Source of the DNA: a virus
DNA: 64,000 bases
Virus record (IMG/VR): IMGVR_UViG_3300010354_000001
Coordinates: 32,001-96,000 of that record
Strand: one strand, 5' to 3'
A program made the position numbers and the translations under genes. Shown here piece after piece: positions 26,423 to 55,518 of this stretch. Every line of letters begins with the position of its first letter. Within the stretch, counting starts at the first letter, position 1. The notes beneath the pieces are model-generated. The model was not told where the DNA came from. It did no database searches and saw only the letters and a list, made by a program, of their open reading frames with translations.

Positions 26423-26911
26423 TCATGTGCCTACCTTCTCCTTACCGCCTAAACTAATCATCCGTATCTCCCAAGTATCCTGTAACTTCATTACTACTGA
26501 ACCAAAAGCAGGAGACTTGGCATTAGCCCCTATACCACTTTCAAACTTTATACGCCCATCTGGAATGAACAACTTGCCCCCTCTAGACATGCCGCAAAAC
26601 CTTTTAGTGGTTATGAACTCTATAGGAAATAATACATATATTTCATTCTTTGCTTGGTTGTAGGTTTCCCAAGCTTTTTCCATAAATTTATGTTTGATGG
26701 TAAATGGTGGATTTATCCAAATTCTTTTATATGTCGTCCAGTCCTTACTTAAGCCATCAGTGTCTATAGTGTCGAAGTTTTCAATCCCGAACTCTTTAGC
26801 TTTCTCTTTAGTGGTAGCTGGATCATAATCAAATACACCAAACTGATCAACAAACCATTTAGGCGTATACCACTCATTATTTTTTGTAAACTCTACTAAA
26901 CCTTTAGCCAT
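26423..26911 (-). CDS. phage-type DNA N6-adenine methyltransferase
   Basis: EWYTP, FDYDPA, DGL..W, WINPPF, GRIKF. Confidence 0.82.
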   Translation of the reverse strand: MAKGLVEFTKNNEWYTPKWFVDQFGVFDYDPATTKEKAKEFGIENFDTIDTDGLSKDWTTYKRIWINPPFTIKHKFMEKAWETYNQAKNEIYVLFPIEFITTKRFCGMSRGGKLFIPDGRIKFESGIGANAKSPAFGSVVMKLQDTWEIRMISLGGKEKVGT

Positions 26912-27602
26912 AATATTCTGCCTCGTCTGCCAATAAATCTGCCCTTCTTACTGTTATTAGAAAATCATTAATTAACTCTAAGTCCGCCTTTTTATCGTTT
27001 ACATAATCCCTAAAGTCTAATAATAAACCTTCATAGTAATTACATAAATTTACTGCTTCTCCTTGAGTATAGTCTTTAGCTTTTCTTATGTCAAGTAAAT
27101 TTTTATAAACTTCTGTACCTTTAAAGTCAATTATATACTCGCCGTGTCTTAAGTAATGCAGTGCTTGGTAAGTTACTCTAAGCCATGCAGAGGTATATTT
27201 TCTAGCTTTCCTGTCTTTATTTAGATCCCAGTCTCCATGCAATAATTTATTTTTTTGATTCTTAGCGTACCCTAAATGAGAGTTAAGAAGAAGTTTTGGG
27301 TTTATTATGTGTGGTAGCAAGTTTCTTAATACAGTGCCAAAATATGTTTTAACTTCTATTGGGGCGACAAACACCTCTAAAATGGTAGGGTTATTTTGTA
27401 GGGCCATAGATAAGAAATGTTTTAACTCCCATGCTGTATTATCTTCGTTGCCTTCTATCCAGCTAGTGTTTGCTGGTTTATTGCCTACGCTTAATAATTC
27501 TCTTGTAGGAGTTGTGAATACTGCTCTATAGTCATAGTCACTGTTTTCATCAGCTAACCCATGTGCCCTAGAGCCTACTAATACTTTTAATATTTCTGTC
27601 AT
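26904..27602 (-). CDS. DNA pol beta-superfamily nucleotidyltransferase (RlaP/YcgL-like)
   Basis: GSRAHGL..ENSDYDYR, NNPTILE, GYAKNQ. Confidence 0.8.
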   Translation of the reverse strand: MTEILKVLVGSRAHGLADENSDYDYRAVFTTPTRELLSVGNKPANTSWIEGNEDNTAWELKHFLSMALQNNPTILEVFVAPIEVKTYFGTVLRNLLPHIINPKLLLNSHLGYAKNQKNKLLHGDWDLNKDRKARKYTSAWLRVTYQALHYLRHGEYIIDFKGTEVYKNLLDIRKAKDYTQGEAVNLCNYYEGLLLDFRDYVNDKKADLELINDFLITVRRADLLADEAEYYG

Positions 27603-28825: not shown

Positions 28826-28880
28826 TTGTTTCCTTTTAGTTAAATGTTAGCACACTTTGGATTTTTTTGCTAAAAAATAC

Positions 28881-28937
28881 AGCAGGCATCAACGTGTTAG
28901 ATTAAAAGTCTAGTGTTGTTTTTGCTGTGAGCCTGCT
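28881..28937 (-). ncRNA. mini Y-like RNA carrying a tRNA-Lys(UUU) anticodon stem-loop
   Basis: AGCAGGC/GCCTGCT stem + TC + ACAGCAA; CAAC/GTTG; TAGA-CTTTTAA-TCTA. Confidence 0.65.
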
Positions 28938-28968
28938 TAGTTAATGACGTTAGCTAGACTAACAATAT

Positions 28969-29046
28969 AGCTACTGGTAGGATTTGAACCTACGACCTCC
29001 TCGCCCATAAAATATGCAAGGTGCTCTACCTCTGAGCTACAGTAAC
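28969..29046 (-). ncRNA. tRNA-like RNA with non-canonical elongated anticodon arm
   Basis: GTTACTG/CAGTAGC acceptor, TAGCTCAGAGGTAGAGC D arm, GTAGG-TTCAAAT-CCTAC T arm; anticodon arm CCTTGC-ATATTTTATGG-GCGAGG. Confidence 0.75.
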
Positions 29047-29054
29047 GTGATTAC

Positions 29055-29172
29055 ACCAGTCATTTTGTCTACAGACGCCTTACCTCTTGGCTACCCTTGT
29101 TTTACGAAGGAGTTGGATTTGAACCAACGATACTCTGTCCCTAATAGATGTTTTTTGTGCTGTTAGACTGGT
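29055..29172 (-). ncRNA. YrlA-like Y RNA (permuted tRNA-like domain)
   Basis: ACCAGTC/GACTGGT stem + ACAGCA; T arm before closed acceptor, then D arm TAGCCAAGAGGTAAGGC. Confidence 0.75.
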
Positions 29173-29182
29173 TGAGTGAGAC

Positions 29183-29310
29183 TGAAGACATTTTGTTGTT
29201 TTTTGATTTGCCTTACCGATCGGCCACCACTCCTTGCGGAATGGGTTGGATTTGAACCAACATACACATCTTGTTTTTGTTTTTGTTTGTTGTGTTGCTG
29301 TCTGTCTTCA
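29183..29310 (-). ncRNA. YrlA-like Y RNA (permuted tRNA-like domain)
   Basis: TGAAGACA/TGTCTTCA stem + ACAGCAA; GTTGG-TTCAAAT-CCAAC; CCATTCC-GCAA-GGAGTGG; TGGCCGATCGGTAAGGC. Confidence 0.78.
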
Positions 29311-29318
29311 AAGAGAAT

Positions 29319-29432
29319 CGGACTTGACTCTCAGCTTCGCTGAGGGAGATTATCGGCTTCACAGAGTCTGCTTTTACTCTCGTATGAGTAAGTAGTCTTA
29401 TTAACTCTCCACCTACGCCCATCCTAGGCGTA
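29319..29432 (-). ncRNA. orphan TnpB omega-RNA-like scaffold (copy 3)
   Basis: Near-identical to 55403-55492 and homologous to tnpB 3' end; terminal hairpin replaced by CTCAGC-GAA-GCTGAG; ends AAGTCCG. Confidence 0.7.
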
Positions 29433-30884
29433 TGTTTTAATTATAGCATACTTTTCATCATTTACTATATTTTCCACTAAAGATTCTGGATTTGCATCAG
29501 CTTCTAATACATATTTCATCACTGAAGGTGAGTACCCAGAAATTAACTGAACATTTTTATCTTTACTTAAAGCTGGCATGTTTCCTGTACGCCCACTGAC
29601 GTTCCAAAATACTACTTTAGGCATAGCATAGCCTGAAGCTCTAAATAAATCTTGTATATGCTCAAAGTTGGTTTTGCTTTTATTGGCTACATCAAACTCC
29701 ATATCAGAGATTATTAATATGCTTTTAGGCATTTCTGATTCTGGAGAATTATGCTGTTTAGCTCTTCCTAGTAATAACTCAAATACTTTAGTTAAATCAG
29801 TGTTATAGCTCCAATTAGCCTTTCTTAAAGCATCTACTTTTTCAAGTAAAGTGCCTTCAGGAATAGTAAAGAAAGCTGGATTCTCACTGAAAGTGCAAAC
29901 TAAGTTTTTAAAGTCTCCTACTAATCTTTCTGCTAAATAGATACCTAGTCCGACAGATACATCCATAGGTTCTCCTGCCATAGACCCAGATACATCACAC
30001 ACTACCAGAGTAGATGATGCTTTTCCTTGTAGATAGTCTGGTAAAGCTTTCCATTGGGCATCTGCGGTTGCAGGATCTTTATCAGTAGCTTTGACTAGAT
30101 CAGAAGGAAATAATACTGAGCTATTTATCTTCTTTTCTCCTTTAACTACTGCTTCTAAATACCCGTTAAACCTCTCCTCTGAGTGTTTTCTGAACGCTTT
30201 AGAGTAGTTGCTCATGGCCTTGGAAGGAACATGCTCGTATTTTATCTCATCCCACTTCTTAGCTGACATTTGAGTCTCTACTACTTTAGTATTAGCTGCT
30301 AGTTTCTGTCTGTAAGCTTTCGGCCCGCCTGCCTGCTCTGTTAGTTTCTTTCTTAGCTTAGGATATTTTTTAGACTTCTCCCTAGGTAGCCACTTGAAAA
30401 GTAAACTGTCAGTTGCTTCGCCAAAAGCTTCTTGTATATGTTTAAGAACTACAAGCTTAGTAAAATAGTGAGTAGTATCGCTCTCGTAGAGATCGAATAG
30501 ATAATCCCATCTTGTGAAAGAGACTATGTTGTCTACGTTATTGATAATCGCACTATCGCTGACTACTCTTACTATATCCTCTGAGTTTATCTGGCATTGG
30601 GTAGTTTCGTGTAAAGTAGCTAAGTAGTTAAGGGCCAGTTTAAAAAATCTTCTCTCTCCTAGTCCTCCCCGAATAGCTCCTGCCCAAAAAATTAACTTAA
30701 TAGTCTTTTCTCTGTCGAATTTGTAAGCTTTATCTATTAATGCAGTTATATCTACATCGCTCATCTTCCTAGAGGCTCCTGCTAGGAACACAAAATCCAC
30801 TAAGGGGTTGAAAGATGATTTATTTGTTACAGCACCATTGTCTGTGTGGCCTGTGTTAGTTAAATTTTTGATTAGATTATTCAT
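29424..30884 (-). CDS. Ro60/TROVE-like VWA protein (DUF2828 type)
   Basis: TDNGA, IRGGLGER, RWD, KWLPRE, VPSKAM, MIDAS CDVSGSM, ISDMEFD, VFWNV, SGYSP. Confidence 0.85.
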   Translation of the reverse strand: MNNLIKNLTNTGHTDNGAVTNKSSFNPLVDFVFLAGASRKMSDVDITALIDKAYKFDREKTIKLIFWAGAIRGGLGERRFFKLALNYLATLHETTQCQINSEDIVRVVSDSAIINNVDNIVSFTRWDYLFDLYESDTTHYFTKLVVLKHIQEAFGEATDSLLFKWLPREKSKKYPKLRKKLTEQAGGPKAYRQKLAANTKVVETQMSAKKWDEIKYEHVPSKAMSNYSKAFRKHSEERFNGYLEAVVKGEKKINSSVLFPSDLVKATDKDPATADAQWKALPDYLQGKASSTLVVCDVSGSMAGEPMDVSVGLGIYLAERLVGDFKNLVCTFSENPAFFTIPEGTLLEKVDALRKANWSYNTDLTKVFELLLGRAKQHNSPESEMPKSILIISDMEFDVANKSKTNFEHIQDLFRASGYAMPKVVFWNVSGRTGNMPALSKDKNVQLISGYSPSVMKYVLEADANPESLVENIVNDEKYAIIKTYA

Positions 30885-33839: not shown

Positions 33840-36008
33840 TTAAAATATTGATACCGATTGTAAAATTTGGCTCCAAACCTTCTCTACAAAATTACCTCCT
33901 TCTAAACCTTCAAACTGTTCTTGTGTGTAAGTCAGTAAGAAGCTTTTAGTTATTGGTAGATCGTTATACTTAGTTAATACTTCTTCTCTAGAAATCTTAT
34001 CCCAGTTGCCTTTTTTATATATCTCTCTAAGCACTCTAATGTCTTTATAGATGGGAAGTTTAACTTTTAGAAACTGACCTTCAGAATCTTCTAAGACGAA
34101 ACCTTCGTCTAGCGAGTCTTTGGATCTCTCTATTAGCTTAGTCAATTCTGTAACAGTATTAGCTGTAAATACTTTAGTCTTAGGCTTAACTCCTATTGCT
34201 TTTGCTATAGATTTTACTTTCTCATAAGGCTCCCTGATAAACTCTAAGGTGTTATGCACTATATCCAGTAATACTAGATGAGCTTTGTCGTACTTGACTA
34301 TATGTGGATCTCGCACTGGGTCTATAACCTCAAACACAAAAGTAGTATTGGTGTCTTTAACATACTTAGTTAAGAACTCTACATCTAAGGTAGCGTGCAA
34401 AATGTCTTTTAAGTATTCTGAAAAATCAGAACTAGGGGAAGTTTTAGAAGTTATAAATAATTTATCTTTTTCATGATCGTAACTAACTAAGCCTAAAAAA
34501 CCATTCTCTTTAGTAAATACTTGTACTGGGTAAGTTAAGCTAGTTAGTTCTAATCCACGCTCTCCTAGATTAAAGAACTTCTCGTATCCTCTGGCTACTA
34601 ATTTATTAGTTTTGTTGTTTATGAATAATCCTCTTGTTTTTATAGTTACTGAATCCCAAGATTTATCATAAAAGGCTTTTCTGGAAAAAGAATAAGAGTC
34701 TATATGATCGTATGTTTTCTTATTTATAAGTTTGCGATTTATATAGCTCTCTAAACTTTTTAGGAACTCTGGAATATTCTCCTCTTTGCTCATAGGTGCT
34801 TTTGGGTTGTGGTATTTGATTATCTCTTGCCTATTTACATCATAAACTGAAAGATATCCTCCATGCTCTACAGAAGACTCTAAGCATACTGCACCATAAT
34901 CAGTTATATAGCTATCATTACTCATGTTTCTGTGTCCGAATACTTGAGTAAAGCAAGTAAGTTCAGAACTGTGCCCATGGGGGTATAATTCCCTACCTAA
35001 ACGCATATTTATACCTTTAGGGGTATAGTTATAGCCTTTTACCCCAGTCCACAAGTGTGCTGAAGGTTTTAATACTATATCGTAGAAATTCTCTAGGTTC
35101 TGTTTCGTATCTACCCCAGCGTGAGTCACCAATATATTATTTCCCTCCTCTAACTGGACTACACAAGCATCGTATAGTTTCTTTAGGAAATCTCTTATAG
35201 ATTTTTTAGTTATCCCTGCTATTTTAGGTAGTGTTACGTTATTAAATGTACCTGATCTTGCTTTCTTGCCCATACAGTAGTCTCTTAGATGTAGTTCGTG
35301 ATTCCCCATTAATAGAGTTACGTTAGGCTTATCTGCTAATTCCATCATTCTGCGAAGCACGTAATTCTCATCATCGCCACGATCTAAGTAGTCTCCTACA
35401 AAAACGTAATGAGTACTATCATCAAATTCACTTAAAAGTTTTTCTAGAGGTTTTCTACATCCCTGTATGTCGCCTACTATTAAAACCTTAATACTGTGCC
35501 TTTCGTACCTTATGCAAGGAATAAACCTGTTGGTCAAAAAATATGTATACAGAGTTTCTTTTAGAGTTTCCCCCTTAATGTGGTTATGATTATTTACAGC
35601 CTCATACCTTTCTTTCTGCCTATTTACCACTGATTCAGGAACGCTGTGTATTCCTCTAGTGGTATTATCTACCAGTGGAGTATTCCCAAAATCTAATACT
35701 AGAGTGTCATATAAATAGTTATCAGCTAATTCTTTAAACGGCTTCATGTCACTTTCTTTAGTGAATGTTGCATCTAATATAATTAGCTGCCCTTCATGCA
35801 TTCTATATTCTACAGCTTCTTTAACTATAGCCCAGATAGATTTATCCATTCCCTGAGAGATAGTAGTTCTATCTAGTTCTACGTTATGTGTTACCCCTGC
35901 TACTGCATGTCTTATTTTATCAGGGCTTATTGTGTAGTCCTCATAGCCTTTAACGTAAGTGCTTTTACCTGTGCCTGAGACACCTCTTAAAAATATTAAT
36001 AGTCTCAT
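33840..36008 (-). CDS. polynucleotide kinase + metallophosphatase + RNA ligase fusion (Pnkp-like end-healing/sealing enzyme)
   Basis: P-loop GVSGTGKST; GDIQG, GDYLDRG, GNHE; RGYEKFFN, KENG, EGFV, KVK. Confidence 0.88.
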   Translation of the reverse strand: MRLLIFLRGVSGTGKSTYVKGYEDYTISPDKIRHAVAGVTHNVELDRTTISQGMDKSIWAIVKEAVEYRMHEGQLIILDATFTKESDMKPFKELADNYLYDTLVLDFGNTPLVDNTTRGIHSVPESVVNRQKERYEAVNNHNHIKGETLKETLYTYFLTNRFIPCIRYERHSIKVLIVGDIQGCRKPLEKLLSEFDDSTHYVFVGDYLDRGDDENYVLRRMMELADKPNVTLLMGNHELHLRDYCMGKKARSGTFNNVTLPKIAGITKKSIRDFLKKLYDACVVQLEEGNNILVTHAGVDTKQNLENFYDIVLKPSAHLWTGVKGYNYTPKGINMRLGRELYPHGHSSELTCFTQVFGHRNMSNDSYITDYGAVCLESSVEHGGYLSVYDVNRQEIIKYHNPKAPMSKEENIPEFLKSLESYINRKLINKKTYDHIDSYSFSRKAFYDKSWDSVTIKTRGLFINNKTNKLVARGYEKFFNLGERGLELTSLTYPVQVFTKENGFLGLVSYDHEKDKLFITSKTSPSSDFSEYLKDILHATLDVEFLTKYVKDTNTTFVFEVIDPVRDPHIVKYDKAHLVLLDIVHNTLEFIREPYEKVKSIAKAIGVKPKTKVFTANTVTELTKLIERSKDSLDEGFVLEDSEGQFLKVKLPIYKDIRVLREIYKKGNWDKISREEVLTKYNDLPITKSFLLTYTQEQFEGLEGGNFVEKVWSQILQSVSIF

Positions 36009-47546: not shown

Positions 47547-47665
47547 CGGACTTGTCCCATTAACATACGTTAAGGGAGATTATCGGCTTCACCGAGTCTG
47601 CTTTAATCACCTCGTATAGTGAGTCTAGTCTTACTAACTCTCCACCAGCGGCCATCCTAGCCGCT
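47547..47665 (-). ncRNA. omega-RNA-like scaffold overlapping tnpB 3' end (copy 1)
   Basis: Position at the tnpB right end; hairpins covary with copies 2 and 3. Confidence 0.7.
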
Positions 47666-55323: not shown

Positions 55324-55518
55324 CAAACTTATCCCATTAACATACGTTAAGAATGTAGTATAATATAACTAGGCATGATAACCAAGTGTCTATTACGAAA
55401 AATACGCCCAGGATGGGCGTAGGTGGAGAGTTAATAAGACTACTTACTCATACGAGAGCAAAAGCAGACTCTGTGAAGCCGATAATCTCCCTTAACGTAT
55501 GTTAATGGGATAAGTCCG
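55324..55518 (+). mobile_element. MITE derivative of the tnpB element retaining promoter and omega-RNA-like scaffold
   Basis: 24-bp perfect TIR core (55327-55350 / 55492-55515); 8-bp direct repeat TAGCATAC at 55316-55323 and 55519-55526. Confidence 0.88.

What the first reader, a model, noticed from the sequence alone, without database searches (positions are those of the whole stretch)
28881..28937. Mini-RNA displaying a tRNA-Lys(UUU) anticodon stem-loop: possible anticodon-nuclease decoy
Seen: the 57-nt RNA has the shared handle, and its only effector is TAGA-CTTTTAA-TCTA, with the 7-nt loop of tRNA-Lys(UUU). Known: tRNA-Lys(UUU) is the target of the anti-phage anticodon nuclease PrrC. Inference: the RNA is a decoy or sensor for host tRNases, presented on the Ro-like protein.
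Basis: inference. Interest (0 to 1): 0.75.

Follow-up and report, generated by a model that had tools for sequence, protein, structure and literature searches.

The report
Phage RNA displaying tRNA-Lys anticodon arm
A 57-base phage RNA carries a copy of the lysine-tRNA anticodon hairpin on a conserved "handle" that travels with a Ro60-shaped protein gene, and many other phages carry the same kind of RNA with other anticodons swapped in, so it is probably a displayed tRNA part that may bait tRNA-cutting defence enzymes (untested).

Summary
On the minus strand, 28937-28881 reads 7-bp stem, UC, ACAGCA, A/C linker, UAGA-CUUUUAA-UCUA, linker, AU, 7-bp stem. A conserved G follows at 28880.

The same handle occurs twice more in this array and nowhere else convincingly in the 114-kb phage. 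It lies just downstream of a DUF2828 gene whose model matches Ro60 best.

In 284 DUF2828 loci the handle occurs 374 times on the gene strand and 32 on the other. RNAs of 50-70 nt are its commonest form. 33 of 172 such cargos hold a hairpin with a C-U-NNN-A-A/C loop, against 1.15 in shuffles.

The loops equal real anticodon loops: Lys UUU (about seven lineages), Asn, Ser, Ile, Cys, Gly, Arg, Met, Asp, Glu and Val. One stem often carries different anticodons.

Anticodon-arm mimicry and the Ro-like partnership are well supported. The decoy or sensor role for anticodon nucleases is plausible but untested.

I found no Rfam family and no paper for this RNA class. The closest known are YrlA-type Y RNAs and Dictyostelium Class I RNAs, which share the stem-UU-ACAGCAA signature. 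This scan has already noted the same family, including bare anticodon hairpins, on other genomes.

The parts
28880..28937 (-). The mini-RNA of the finding: the 57-nt handle RNA plus the conserved 3' G at 28880
   Evidence: Related freshwater strains keep it unchanged apart from a 1-nt insertion in the linker, while the spacer 28938-28968 is riddled with indels.
28931..28937 (-). 5' strand of the 7-bp closing stem (AGCAGGC)
   Evidence: Pairs perfectly with 28881-28887. This helix covaries at all 7 positions across 31 family members.
28923..28928 (-). Invariant ACAGCA box, preceded by the 2-nt spacer UC (28929-28930) and followed by A
   Evidence: ACAGCA plus A (89%) is the family signature. 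It has no conserved complement in the 3' part, so it is probably single-stranded.
28913..28922 (-). G-free A/C linker (AAAACAACAC)
   Evidence: Linkers in the family are G-poor, 2-4% G. A natural 1-nt insertion is tolerated here.
28898..28912 (-). Anticodon-stem-loop mimic: UAGA (28912-28909), loop CUUUUAA (28908-28902), UCUA (28901-28898)
   Evidence: The loop equals that of real tRNA-Lys(UUU) genes. The same loop sits on different stems in L028, L137, L147, L208 and L209. The helix covaries, with an invariant A-U pair next to the loop.
28881..28887 (-). 3' strand of the closing stem (GCCUGCU), preceded by AU (28888-28889)
28872..28879 (-). U-A then a U-run right after the conserved G; probable end of the array's transcript
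   Evidence: Sequence. The conserved block in related strains ends at 28872. Only 36 of 310 handle RNAs have such a U-run, which fits array-terminal units. The terminator scan did not call it.
28969..29046 (-). tRNA-like gene with normal acceptor, D and T arms but a 13-nt anticodon loop and no handle
   Evidence: ARAGORN and Rfam tRNA, 53.6 bits, loop of 13 instead of 7.
29055..29172 (-). Handle RNA 2: same handle, cargo is a circularly permuted tRNA elbow (T arm, closed acceptor hairpin, D arm)
29183..29310 (-). Handle RNA 1: same handle, permuted tRNA elbow cargo
   Evidence: An exact contig from an RNA library covers 29168-29393; this is not proof of transcription.
29424..30884 (-). DUF2828 + DUF7788 (vWA-like) protein with a Ro60 fold; the presumed protein partner
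   Evidence: Pfam E 1e-36 and 1e-47. The AF2 model (pLDDT 78) has its top 13 PDB hits all on Ro60/TROVE over the full length.

Best explanation
The 57-nt element is a real small RNA gene. It is the last unit of a four-RNA array co-oriented with, and just downstream of, a Ro60-fold DUF2828 gene in a 114-kb freshwater phage.

It belongs to a widespread RNA family that I could not find described. The family's handle is a 7-bp closing stem, NN, ACAGCAA, and a G after the 3' strand. The family lives inside phage tRNA clusters next to DUF2828 genes.

By analogy with Ro60 and Y RNAs, the handle most likely binds the DUF2828 ring protein (inferred). The variable cargo is displayed. In this RNA the cargo is a mimic of the tRNA-Lys(UUU) anticodon arm (shown by comparison).

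Most likely use (inferred, untested): the particle offers the anticodon loop as a bait or competing ligand to proteins that read anticodon loops. The chief candidates are host anticodon nucleases that cut tRNA-Lys. This would protect the host tRNA-Lys that the phage depends on. The neighbouring elbow-type RNAs would do the same for proteins that read the tRNA corner.

Biogenesis (inferred): the RNA is released from a tRNA-cluster-like precursor. Here the closing stem plus U-run ends the transcript.
For: Handle specificity:
- Exactly 3 hits in the window, all in the array.
- In 284 DUF2828 loci, 374 hits on the gene strand against 32 on the other, in 181 loci. For 40-79 nt RNAs the count is 172 against 4.
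- The handle has a conserved 3' G in 91% of members.
- Named phages carry it too: Felix O1-like wV8, Listeria A511, Campylobacter NCTC12673, mycobacteriophage Gardann and Staphylococcus 6ec.

Partner protein: the DUF2828 model's best PDB matches are all Ro60.

Anticodon mimicry:
- 33 of 172 unique mini cargos have a hairpin of at least 4 bp with a C-U-NNN-A-A/C loop. Dinucleotide shuffles give a mean of 1.15 and a maximum of 5.
- The loops equal the modal loops of real tRNAs with the same anticodon.
- Both helices covary.
- The same stem (UCAAA/UUUGA) carries the UUU, GCU and UCC anticodons.
- Lys(UUU) makes up 7 of 34 mimics against 8 of 526 tRNA genes, p = 7e-6.

Constraint in nature: related strains keep the RNA intact while the adjacent spacer is scrambled.

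Context:
- 605 of 607 tRNA genes in the loci lie on the DUF2828 strand, and handle RNAs sit 2-20 nt from tRNAs.
- This phage has no tRNA-Lys gene, and AAA is its commonest codon.
- RlaP and a kinase-phosphatase-Rnl1 ligase lie nearby.

[quoted passage not shown] PARIS AriB targets Lys(UUU), Thr(UGU) and Asn(GUU) (PMC12409363).
Against: - No expression, binding or cleavage data exist for this RNA.
- The hairpin here has only 4 bp and is not in the minimum-energy fold.
- PrrC recognition also uses base modifications, and I cannot tell whether the mimic receives them.
- A decoy would have to compete with abundant host tRNA.
- 141 of 175 minis carry other, non-anticodon cargos, so the family's role is broader than anticodon display.
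- Mimic stems are AU-rich with an invariant A31-U39 pair, unlike real tRNAs. This could point to a dedicated partner rather than host nucleases.
- 10 of 45 mimics sit beside a tRNA gene with the same anticodon.
- RNA-repair genes lie within 2.5 kb in only 10 of 284 loci.
Confidence: 0.4

Rival explanations
1. Adaptor or tether, the classical Y-RNA role. The anticodon-arm cargo recruits a tRNA-handling enzyme to the DUF2828 ring, or brings the ring to ribosomes. Candidates are anticodon-loop modification enzymes (t6A37, i6A37, Q34 or pseudouridine-39 enzymes), RNA ligase/Pnkp and RlaP. The RNA would then be an adaptor rather than a decoy.
For: Y RNAs tether Ro60 to effectors such as PNPase, and YrlA mimics tRNA and is modified by tRNA enzymes (PMC4201824, PMC12135203). 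The mimics keep the exact frame A31-C32-U33-NNN-A37-A38-U39. Most are anticodons of the t6A37 or i6A37 classes. RlaP and a healing-and-sealing ligase are near the array in this phage, and RtcB is near it in A511.
Against: Repair genes are rarely within 2.5 kb of DUF2828. It is unclear why a tether would need a dozen different anticodons. No enzyme partner is identified.
Confidence: 0.22
2. Cleavage-sensitive latch, the 'sensor' half of the first reader's idea. The cargo is the only covalent link between the two strands of a short 7-bp handle. A host nuclease that cuts the anticodon loop would let the RNA fall off. This would un-gate the Ro-like ring so that it acts on damaged tRNAs.
For: Y RNAs are known to gate access to Ro60 (PMC4201824 and reviews cited there). 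The handle is a short helix closed only through the cargo. Arrays combine several different tRNA-part cargos.
Against: This is purely inferential. No evidence shows that DUF2828 has a gated cavity or any downstream activity.
Confidence: 0.15
3. The element is only the terminator or processing hairpin of the array, and the CUUUUAA loop is a coincidence of AT-rich sequence.
For: The closing stem is GC-rich and is followed by G-U-A-UUUUUU. The inner hairpin is thermodynamically weak.
Against: The same handle with the same loop recurs on different stems in at least five other loci, and C-U-NNN-A-A loops are about 30-fold enriched over shuffles. Only 12% of handle RNAs have a U-run. The terminator scan does not call it.
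Confidence: 0.04
4. It is a decayed remnant of a tRNA-Lys gene.
For: It lies in a tRNA-like array next to an aberrant tRNA-like gene.
Against: It has no D arm, T arm or acceptor features. Instead it has the precise conserved handle. Its stem is unlike real tRNA-Lys stems. It is conserved while the neighbouring spacer decays.
Confidence: 0.02

Closest known systems
Bacterial and phage Y RNAs (YrlA/YrlB, Yrn1) with Ro60/Rsr (Rfam RF02553; Chen et al. 2014, PMC4201824; Thermus phage phiLo Ro60-Yrl, PMC12135203)
   Same: Small RNAs are encoded on the same strand beside a Ro60-fold ring protein with a vWA domain. A terminal stem joins the 5' and 3' ends. The design is modular, with a protein-binding module plus an effector module. 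tRNA mimicry is present; the two neighbouring RNAs here are YrlA-like permuted elbows.
   Different: The protein matches Pfam DUF2828/DUF7788, not TROVE, by sequence. The handle motif is ACAGCAA, not the CGAA/GNCGAAN0-1G motif. There is no Rfam YrlA hit on this RNA. The cargo is a bare anticodon stem-loop, which I found described for no Y RNA. The RNAs occur in arrays of up to 7 inside tRNA clusters.
Class I RNAs of dictyostelid social amoebae (Kjellin et al. 2021, PMC7919456; search pattern GTTGRC-CTT-ACAGCAA ... GTCAAC-TG in PMC5054030)
   Same: Both are about 60 nt, with a short closing stem joining the two ends. UU-ACAGCAA lies directly after the 5' strand and the middle is variable. The 3' end reads C-U-G-U; this RNA ends ...GCCUGCU-GU.
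   Different: Class I RNAs are eukaryotic and reported as restricted to Dictyostelia. Their stem is 6 bp. Their known binder is the RRM protein Rnp1A/Cibp. No tRNA mimicry is reported. No Class I family appeared among Rfam matches at E up to 10 for this RNA or E up to 5 for ten other loci. Homology is therefore unproven.
Phage answers to tRNA-cutting defences: T4 Pnkp/Rnl1 repair of PrrC-cut tRNA-Lys, and T5 tRNA variants that bypass PARIS AriB (PMC12409363)
   Same: Both concern the same tRNAs, above all Lys(UUU) and Asn(GUU). Both are phage-encoded and sit in tRNA-cluster or RNA-repair gene contexts.
   Different: Those are working replacement tRNAs or repair enzymes. This RNA has no acceptor end and cannot be charged. 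It keeps the host-like loop rather than an escape variant.
Synthetic anticodon stem-loop analogs used as PrrC substrates (PMC1950546)
   Same: Both are an isolated hairpin with the tRNA-Lys anticodon loop, and such hairpins are bound and cleaved by PrrC in vitro.
   Different: Those analogs carry natural base modifications and a GC-containing 5-bp stem. This one is a natural gene product on a protein-binding handle, with a 4-bp AU-rich stem and unknown modification state.

Membership tests
ACAGCAA-handle RNAs associated with DUF2828 (defined by this scan; no published name found) | 7-bp closing stem joining the 5' and 3' ends | tested here: met
   AGCAGGC/GCCUGCU is fully Watson-Crick. The helix covaries in the family.
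ACAGCAA-handle RNAs associated with DUF2828 (defined by this scan; no published name found) | 2-nt spacer, then ACAGCA followed by A | tested here: met
   UC-ACAGCA-A.
ACAGCAA-handle RNAs associated with DUF2828 (defined by this scan; no published name found) | G immediately after the 3' strand | tested here: met
   G at 28880. It is present in 91% of 255 unique members.
ACAGCAA-handle RNAs associated with DUF2828 (defined by this scan; no published name found) | Same strand as, and close to, a DUF2828 gene or tRNA cluster | tested here: met
   The RNA lies 487 nt downstream of the gene on the same strand. Family strand bias is 374 against 32.
ACAGCAA-handle RNAs associated with DUF2828 (defined by this scan; no published name found) | Physical binding of the handle to the DUF2828 protein | not testable with these tools
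   Only co-location and the Ro60 fold support it.
YrlA / Y RNA (Rfam RF02553, RF00019) | Match to the covariance model at the gathering score | tested here: not met
   There is no YrlA or Y_RNA match even at E up to 10.
YrlA / Y RNA (Rfam RF02553, RF00019) | GNCGAAN0-1G / CGAA Ro-binding motif (PMC4201824, PMC12135203) | tested here: not met
   The 57-nt sequence contains no CGAA.
YrlA / Y RNA (Rfam RF02553, RF00019) | Encoded next to a Ro60 (TROVE) ortholog on the same strand | tested here: inconclusive
   The neighbour has the Ro60 fold, but its Pfam families are DUF2828/DUF7788, not TROVE. The profile-to-PDB sequence match to phiLo Ro60 is only E 0.03.
YrlA / Y RNA (Rfam RF02553, RF00019) | tRNA-like T/D/acceptor domain | tested here: not met
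   It is absent from this RNA. It is present in the two upstream array members.
tRNA-Lys(UUU) | Seven-base anticodon loop CUUUUAA on a helix | tested here: met
   The loop is identical to 8 of 8 tRNA-Lys(UUU) genes in related loci. The stem has 4 bp rather than 5.
tRNA-Lys(UUU) | Cloverleaf with acceptor end, D and T arms | tested here: not met
   ARAGORN and Rfam tRNA find nothing at 28881-28937.
Dictyostelid Class I RNA | About 60 nt, closing stem, UU-ACAGCAA after the 5' strand, 3' CUGU | tested here: met
   57 nt, 7-bp stem, UC-ACAGCAA, and the end reads ...CU-GU. Pattern taken from PMC5054030 and PMC7919456.
Dictyostelid Class I RNA | Match to an Rfam covariance model for the family; dictyostelid origin | tested here: not met
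   No Class I family appears among Rfam matches. The source is a freshwater phage.
Substrate or decoy of PrrC-type anticodon nucleases | Binding or cleavage by the nuclease; competition with tRNA-Lys | not testable with these tools
   Only the sequence prerequisite, the Lys anticodon loop, is met.
Intrinsic terminator | GC-rich hairpin with a short loop directly followed by a U-run | tested here: inconclusive
   A U-run follows 3 nt after the GC-rich closing stem, but the 'loop' is 43 nt. The scan does not call it.

The most novel reading that the evidence does not exclude
The DUF2828 particle is a second, undescribed Ro/Y-type system. Its partner RNAs are interchangeable 'tRNA-part cartridges': anticodon arms of chosen tRNAs, elbows, and whole bodies. 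They would act as cleavage-sensitive baits. When a host anticodon nuclease cuts the displayed loop, the short handle falls apart and the ring is switched on or freed. The same handle in Dictyostelium Class I RNAs would mean that this particle type spans phages, bacteria and eukaryotes.
Probability: 0.15. Interest if true: 0.9.

Novelty: new variant of a known kind. Interest (0 to 1): 0.72.

Why it matters
tRNA cleavage is now recognised as a common anti-phage defence (PrrC, RloC, PARIS, Cas13a collateral cutting). The known phage answers are repair enzymes and replacement tRNAs. A phage RNA that displays only the anticodon arm of the most-attacked tRNAs, on a handle tied to a Ro60-like protein, would be a third kind of answer: an RNA bait or sensor.

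It would also give the widespread DUF2828 family (710 phage records) and the long-puzzling tRNA mimicry of Y RNAs a testable function.

The family is present in cultivable phages (Felix O1-like, A511, NCTC12673, cluster-L-type mycobacteriophages, Staphylococcus 6ec), so the idea can be tested directly. The shared ACAGCAA signature also offers a lead on the unexplained Class I RNAs of Dictyostelium.

Tried and rejected
- DNA similarity of the array to 50,697 phage records: no match. The closest DUF2828 proteins are at most 42% identical.
- Rfam, at gathering and permissive thresholds, on this RNA and on 20 related loci: only tRNA, tmRNA, GOLLD, a group I intron and sub-threshold noise. The noise includes AgvB at 22.7 bits (against 56 needed), caused by the CA-rich linker plus U-run.
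- Class I RNA by Rfam: no hit.
- Thermodynamic folding does not recover the anticodon hairpin of this particular RNA.
- Promoter scan: no sigma-70-like site on the minus strand upstream of the array.
- Metatranscriptome run X15: its contigs cover 29168-29393 only and do not reach the mini-RNA. This says nothing about expression of a 57-nt RNA.
- Idea that mimics replace a missing cognate tRNA gene: not decidable with 2.5-kb flanks. 10 of 45 mimics have the cognate tRNA nearby, and L208 is cut just where L206 has tRNA-Lys(UUU).
- Tight linkage to RNA-repair genes: not general, 10 of 284 loci within 2.5 kb.
- Literature search for DUF2828 returned only unrelated plant and tardigrade papers.

Full report
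**What is at the coordinates.** The minus strand of 28937-28881 reads AGCAGGC-UC-ACAGCA-AAAACAACAC-UAGA-CUUUUAA-UCUA-ACACGUUG-AU-GCCUGCU, followed by G (28880) and UA-UUUUUU. The two ends form a perfect 7-bp helix. The only other obvious structure is the 4-bp hairpin UAGA/UCUA, closing the 7-nt loop CUUUUAA. RNAfold supports only the closing stem (-12.6 kcal/mol, z -2.2); the inner hairpin is too weak to appear in the minimum-energy fold.

**The surroundings.** The element is the last of four co-oriented non-coding units directly downstream of a 486-aa gene at 29424-30884 on the minus strand.
- The gene matches Pfam DUF2828 and DUF7788.
- Its AlphaFold model (pLDDT 78) has its 13 best PDB matches on Ro60/TROVE proteins over the full length. 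These include the Thermus phage phiLo Ro60 and the Xenopus Ro-RNA complexes. Sequence-level similarity is marginal.
- The other units are two RNAs with the same handle and circularly permuted tRNA elbows (29310-29183, 29172-29055).
- Between them and the mini-RNA lies a tRNA-like gene with a 13-nt anticodon loop (29046-28969).
- An RlaP nucleotidyltransferase (26904-27602) and a kinase-phosphoesterase-Rnl1 ligase fusion (33840-36008) lie nearby on the same strand.
- The genome is a single 113,974-bp, 36% GC contig from freshwater metagenomes, with only Trp, Gly and His tRNAs besides the odd one.

**Is the handle more than chance?** A pattern scan for [7-bp stem]-NN-ACAGCA-...-AU-[stem'] finds exactly these three RNAs in 64 kb on both strands. 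In the whole genome, looser criteria add only hits with G-U pairs and without the trailing G.

I fetched 284 loci encoding DUF2828 relatives. They come from IMG/VR, five named phages, and bacterial or MAG contigs.
- The handle (stem-NN-ACAGCA ... stem') occurs 374 times on the gene strand and 32 times on the opposite strand, in 181 loci.
- For RNAs of 40-79 nt the counts are 172 unique against 4.
- The consensus adds an A after ACAGCA (89%), a G-poor linker, an A-rich 3' linker and a G right after the 3' strand (91%).
- Named carriers include Felix O1-like phage wV8, Listeria phage A511, Campylobacter phage NCTC12673, mycobacteriophage Gardann and Staphylococcus phage 6ec.
- The loci are tRNA clusters: 605 of 607 tRNA genes lie on the DUF2828 strand, and handle RNAs sit a few bases from tRNAs. 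This suggests release by ordinary tRNA processing.

RNAs of 50-70 nt are the commonest form of the family, and 7 nt is the modal loop size of their best hairpin (50 of 173).
- Among 172 unique mini cargos, 33 contain a hairpin of at least 4 bp whose loop fits C-U-NNN-A-A/C. Dinucleotide shuffles give a mean of 1.15 and a maximum of 5 in 300 trials.
- The a priori tRNA signature Y-U-NNN-R-N gives 37 against 7.8.
- The loops found are CUUUUAA (Lys; window, L028/L182, L137, L147, L208, L209, plus CUUUUAC in L186/L239-type loci), CUGUUAA (Asn, 7 sequences), CUUGAAA (Ser), CUGCUAA (Ser), CUGAUAA (Ile, including NCTC12673), CUGCAAA (Cys), CUUCCAA (Gly), CUUCUAA (Arg), CUCAUAA (Met), CUGUCAC (Asp), CUUUCAA (Glu) and CUUACAA (Val).
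- Each equals the modal or a common loop of real tRNA genes with that anticodon in the same loci. The one partial exception is Ser-GCU, where most real genes start with U.
- In an alignment of 31 such RNAs both helices covary. All 7 closing-stem pairs and 4 of 5 hairpin pairs show changes on both sides. The pair next to the loop is an invariant A-U. These rows were selected for pairing, so the shuffle test is the independent evidence.
- The same stem (UCAAA/UUUGA) carries UUU, GCU and UCC loops in different phages. The anticodon is what is swapped.
- Lys(UUU) is 7 of 34 mimics but only 8 of 526 tRNA genes in these loci (p = 7e-6). Asn is also enriched (p = 8e-4).

**Constraint on this copy.** Contigs from three other freshwater studies carry the array 28872-29347 almost unchanged while the flanks differ.
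- Inside the mini-RNA the only difference is a 1-nt insertion in the A/C linker.
- The 31-nt spacer between the mini-RNA and the tRNA-like gene is scrambled by indels.
- The conserved block ends just after the U-run.

These boundaries fit the predicted RNA.

**What it most likely does.**
- Shown: membership in the handle family, the Ro60 fold of the neighbouring protein, and anticodon-loop identity with family-wide anticodon swapping.
- Inferred: the handle binds DUF2828 as Y RNAs bind Ro60, and the cargo is presented to proteins that read anticodon loops.

Several points favour a bait or competitor for host anticodon nucleases.
- PrrC's cues lie in the anticodon stem-loop, and isolated stem-loop analogs are cleaved (PMC1950546).
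- PARIS AriB targets Lys(UUU), Thr(UGU) and Asn(GUU) (PMC12409363), and Lys and Asn are the two most common mimics.
- This phage has no tRNA-Lys gene, while AAA is its most used codon.
- Healing, sealing and RlaP enzymes lie nearby (RlaP biochemistry in bioRxiv 10.64898/2025.12.29.696909).

Several points count against it.
- Most minis (141 of 175) carry other cargos.
- Mimic stems are AU-rich with an invariant A31-U39 pair, unlike real tRNAs.
- Some loci hold both a mimic and the cognate tRNA gene.
- Repair genes are seldom adjacent.
- The modification state is unknown.

The rivals are a Y-RNA-style tether for tRNA-modifying or repair enzymes, a cleavage-sensitive latch on the Ro-like ring, and a mere terminator. 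The last is largely excluded by the comparative data.

**Comparison with what is known.** The system works like Ro60/Y RNA with YrlA-type tRNA mimicry (PMC4201824, PMC12135203), but it fails that family's tests. There is no CGAA motif, no Rfam match and no Pfam TROVE hit.

The handle signature is the same as that of Dictyostelium Class I RNAs: closing stem, UU-ACAGCAA, about 60 nt, 3' CUGU (PMC5054030, PMC7919456). No Class I family appeared among the Rfam matches, and homology is unproven.

A full-text search for DUF2828 found no paper on these RNAs, and Rfam 15 has no family for them. Earlier notes of this scan had already described the ACAGCAA-handle family, including bare anticodon hairpins, on other genomes. 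My tests here agree with them independently.

**Verdict.** The anticodon-arm mimic and the Ro-like context are well supported. The decoy or sensor function is plausible and testable but unproven.

Noticed in passing
window 29343-29433 (also 55402-55492, 47573-47660, and genome 12731-12814 outside the window): A ~91-nt element overlaps the DUF2828 stop codon. It is repeated 3-4 times in the phage at 97-98% identity. In metagenome contigs it appears in several different contexts at up to 10-fold higher depth. It has a weak, sub-threshold resemblance to RAGATH-18 (21.8 bits against 44.9). It looks like a small mobile or repeated RNA element.
   Followed up: partly
window 28969-29046 (-); L112 4520-4582: The tRNA-like gene in the array has a 13-nt anticodon loop, CAUAUUUUAUGGG. 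A 63-nt handle RNA of Staphylococcus phage 6ec has a 13-nt loop starting with the same nine bases, CAUAUUUUA.
   Followed up: no
L108 4921-4978, L111 4472-4521; L058 and L112 4669-4727; L028, L034: Non-anticodon loop classes recur across very distant phages. GCGGA occurs in E. coli phage wV8 and mycobacteriophage Gardann. AUGG(G)AAC occurs in L058 and Staphylococcus phage 6ec. 9-nt UCCRAAAAYC loops occur in L028 and L034. These cargos are conserved but unexplained.
   Followed up: no
alignment A3, columns 36-44: All anticodon-arm mimics keep an invariant A-U pair next to the loop and the frame A-CU-NNN-AA-U. Real tRNAs in the same loci use all four pair types at position 31-39.
   Followed up: partly
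L005 2116-2208: A handle RNA whose cargo is a complete tRNA-Thr(UGU) body (D arm, anticodon arm, T arm) with the handle in place of the acceptor stem. Rfam tRNA matches model positions 8-63 only.
   Followed up: partly
L148 1079-1524: A full GOLLD RNA (198.8 bits) lies about 1 kb upstream of a DUF2828 gene in a 179-kb viral contig, on the same strand, among tRNAs and handle RNAs.
   Followed up: no
window 33840-36008 (-), 26904-27602 (-): There is a single-chain polynucleotide kinase, metallophosphoesterase and Rnl1-type RNA ligase (722 aa). An RlaP nucleotidyltransferase flanks the Ro-like locus. Together they form a full heal-and-seal set in a phage with only three ordinary tRNA genes.
   Followed up: partly
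whole genome G000: AAA is the most frequent codon in long ORFs (1557 of 26,933), yet the phage encodes no tRNA-Lys. It therefore depends on host tRNA-Lys(UUU).
   Followed up: yes
window 28913-28922 and 29262-29300 (-): The linkers after ACAGCA are long CA-rich, G-free runs. They give a sub-threshold Rfam hit to AgvB, the prophage anti-GcvB sponge RNA (22.7 bits against 56). This is probably compositional.
   Followed up: no
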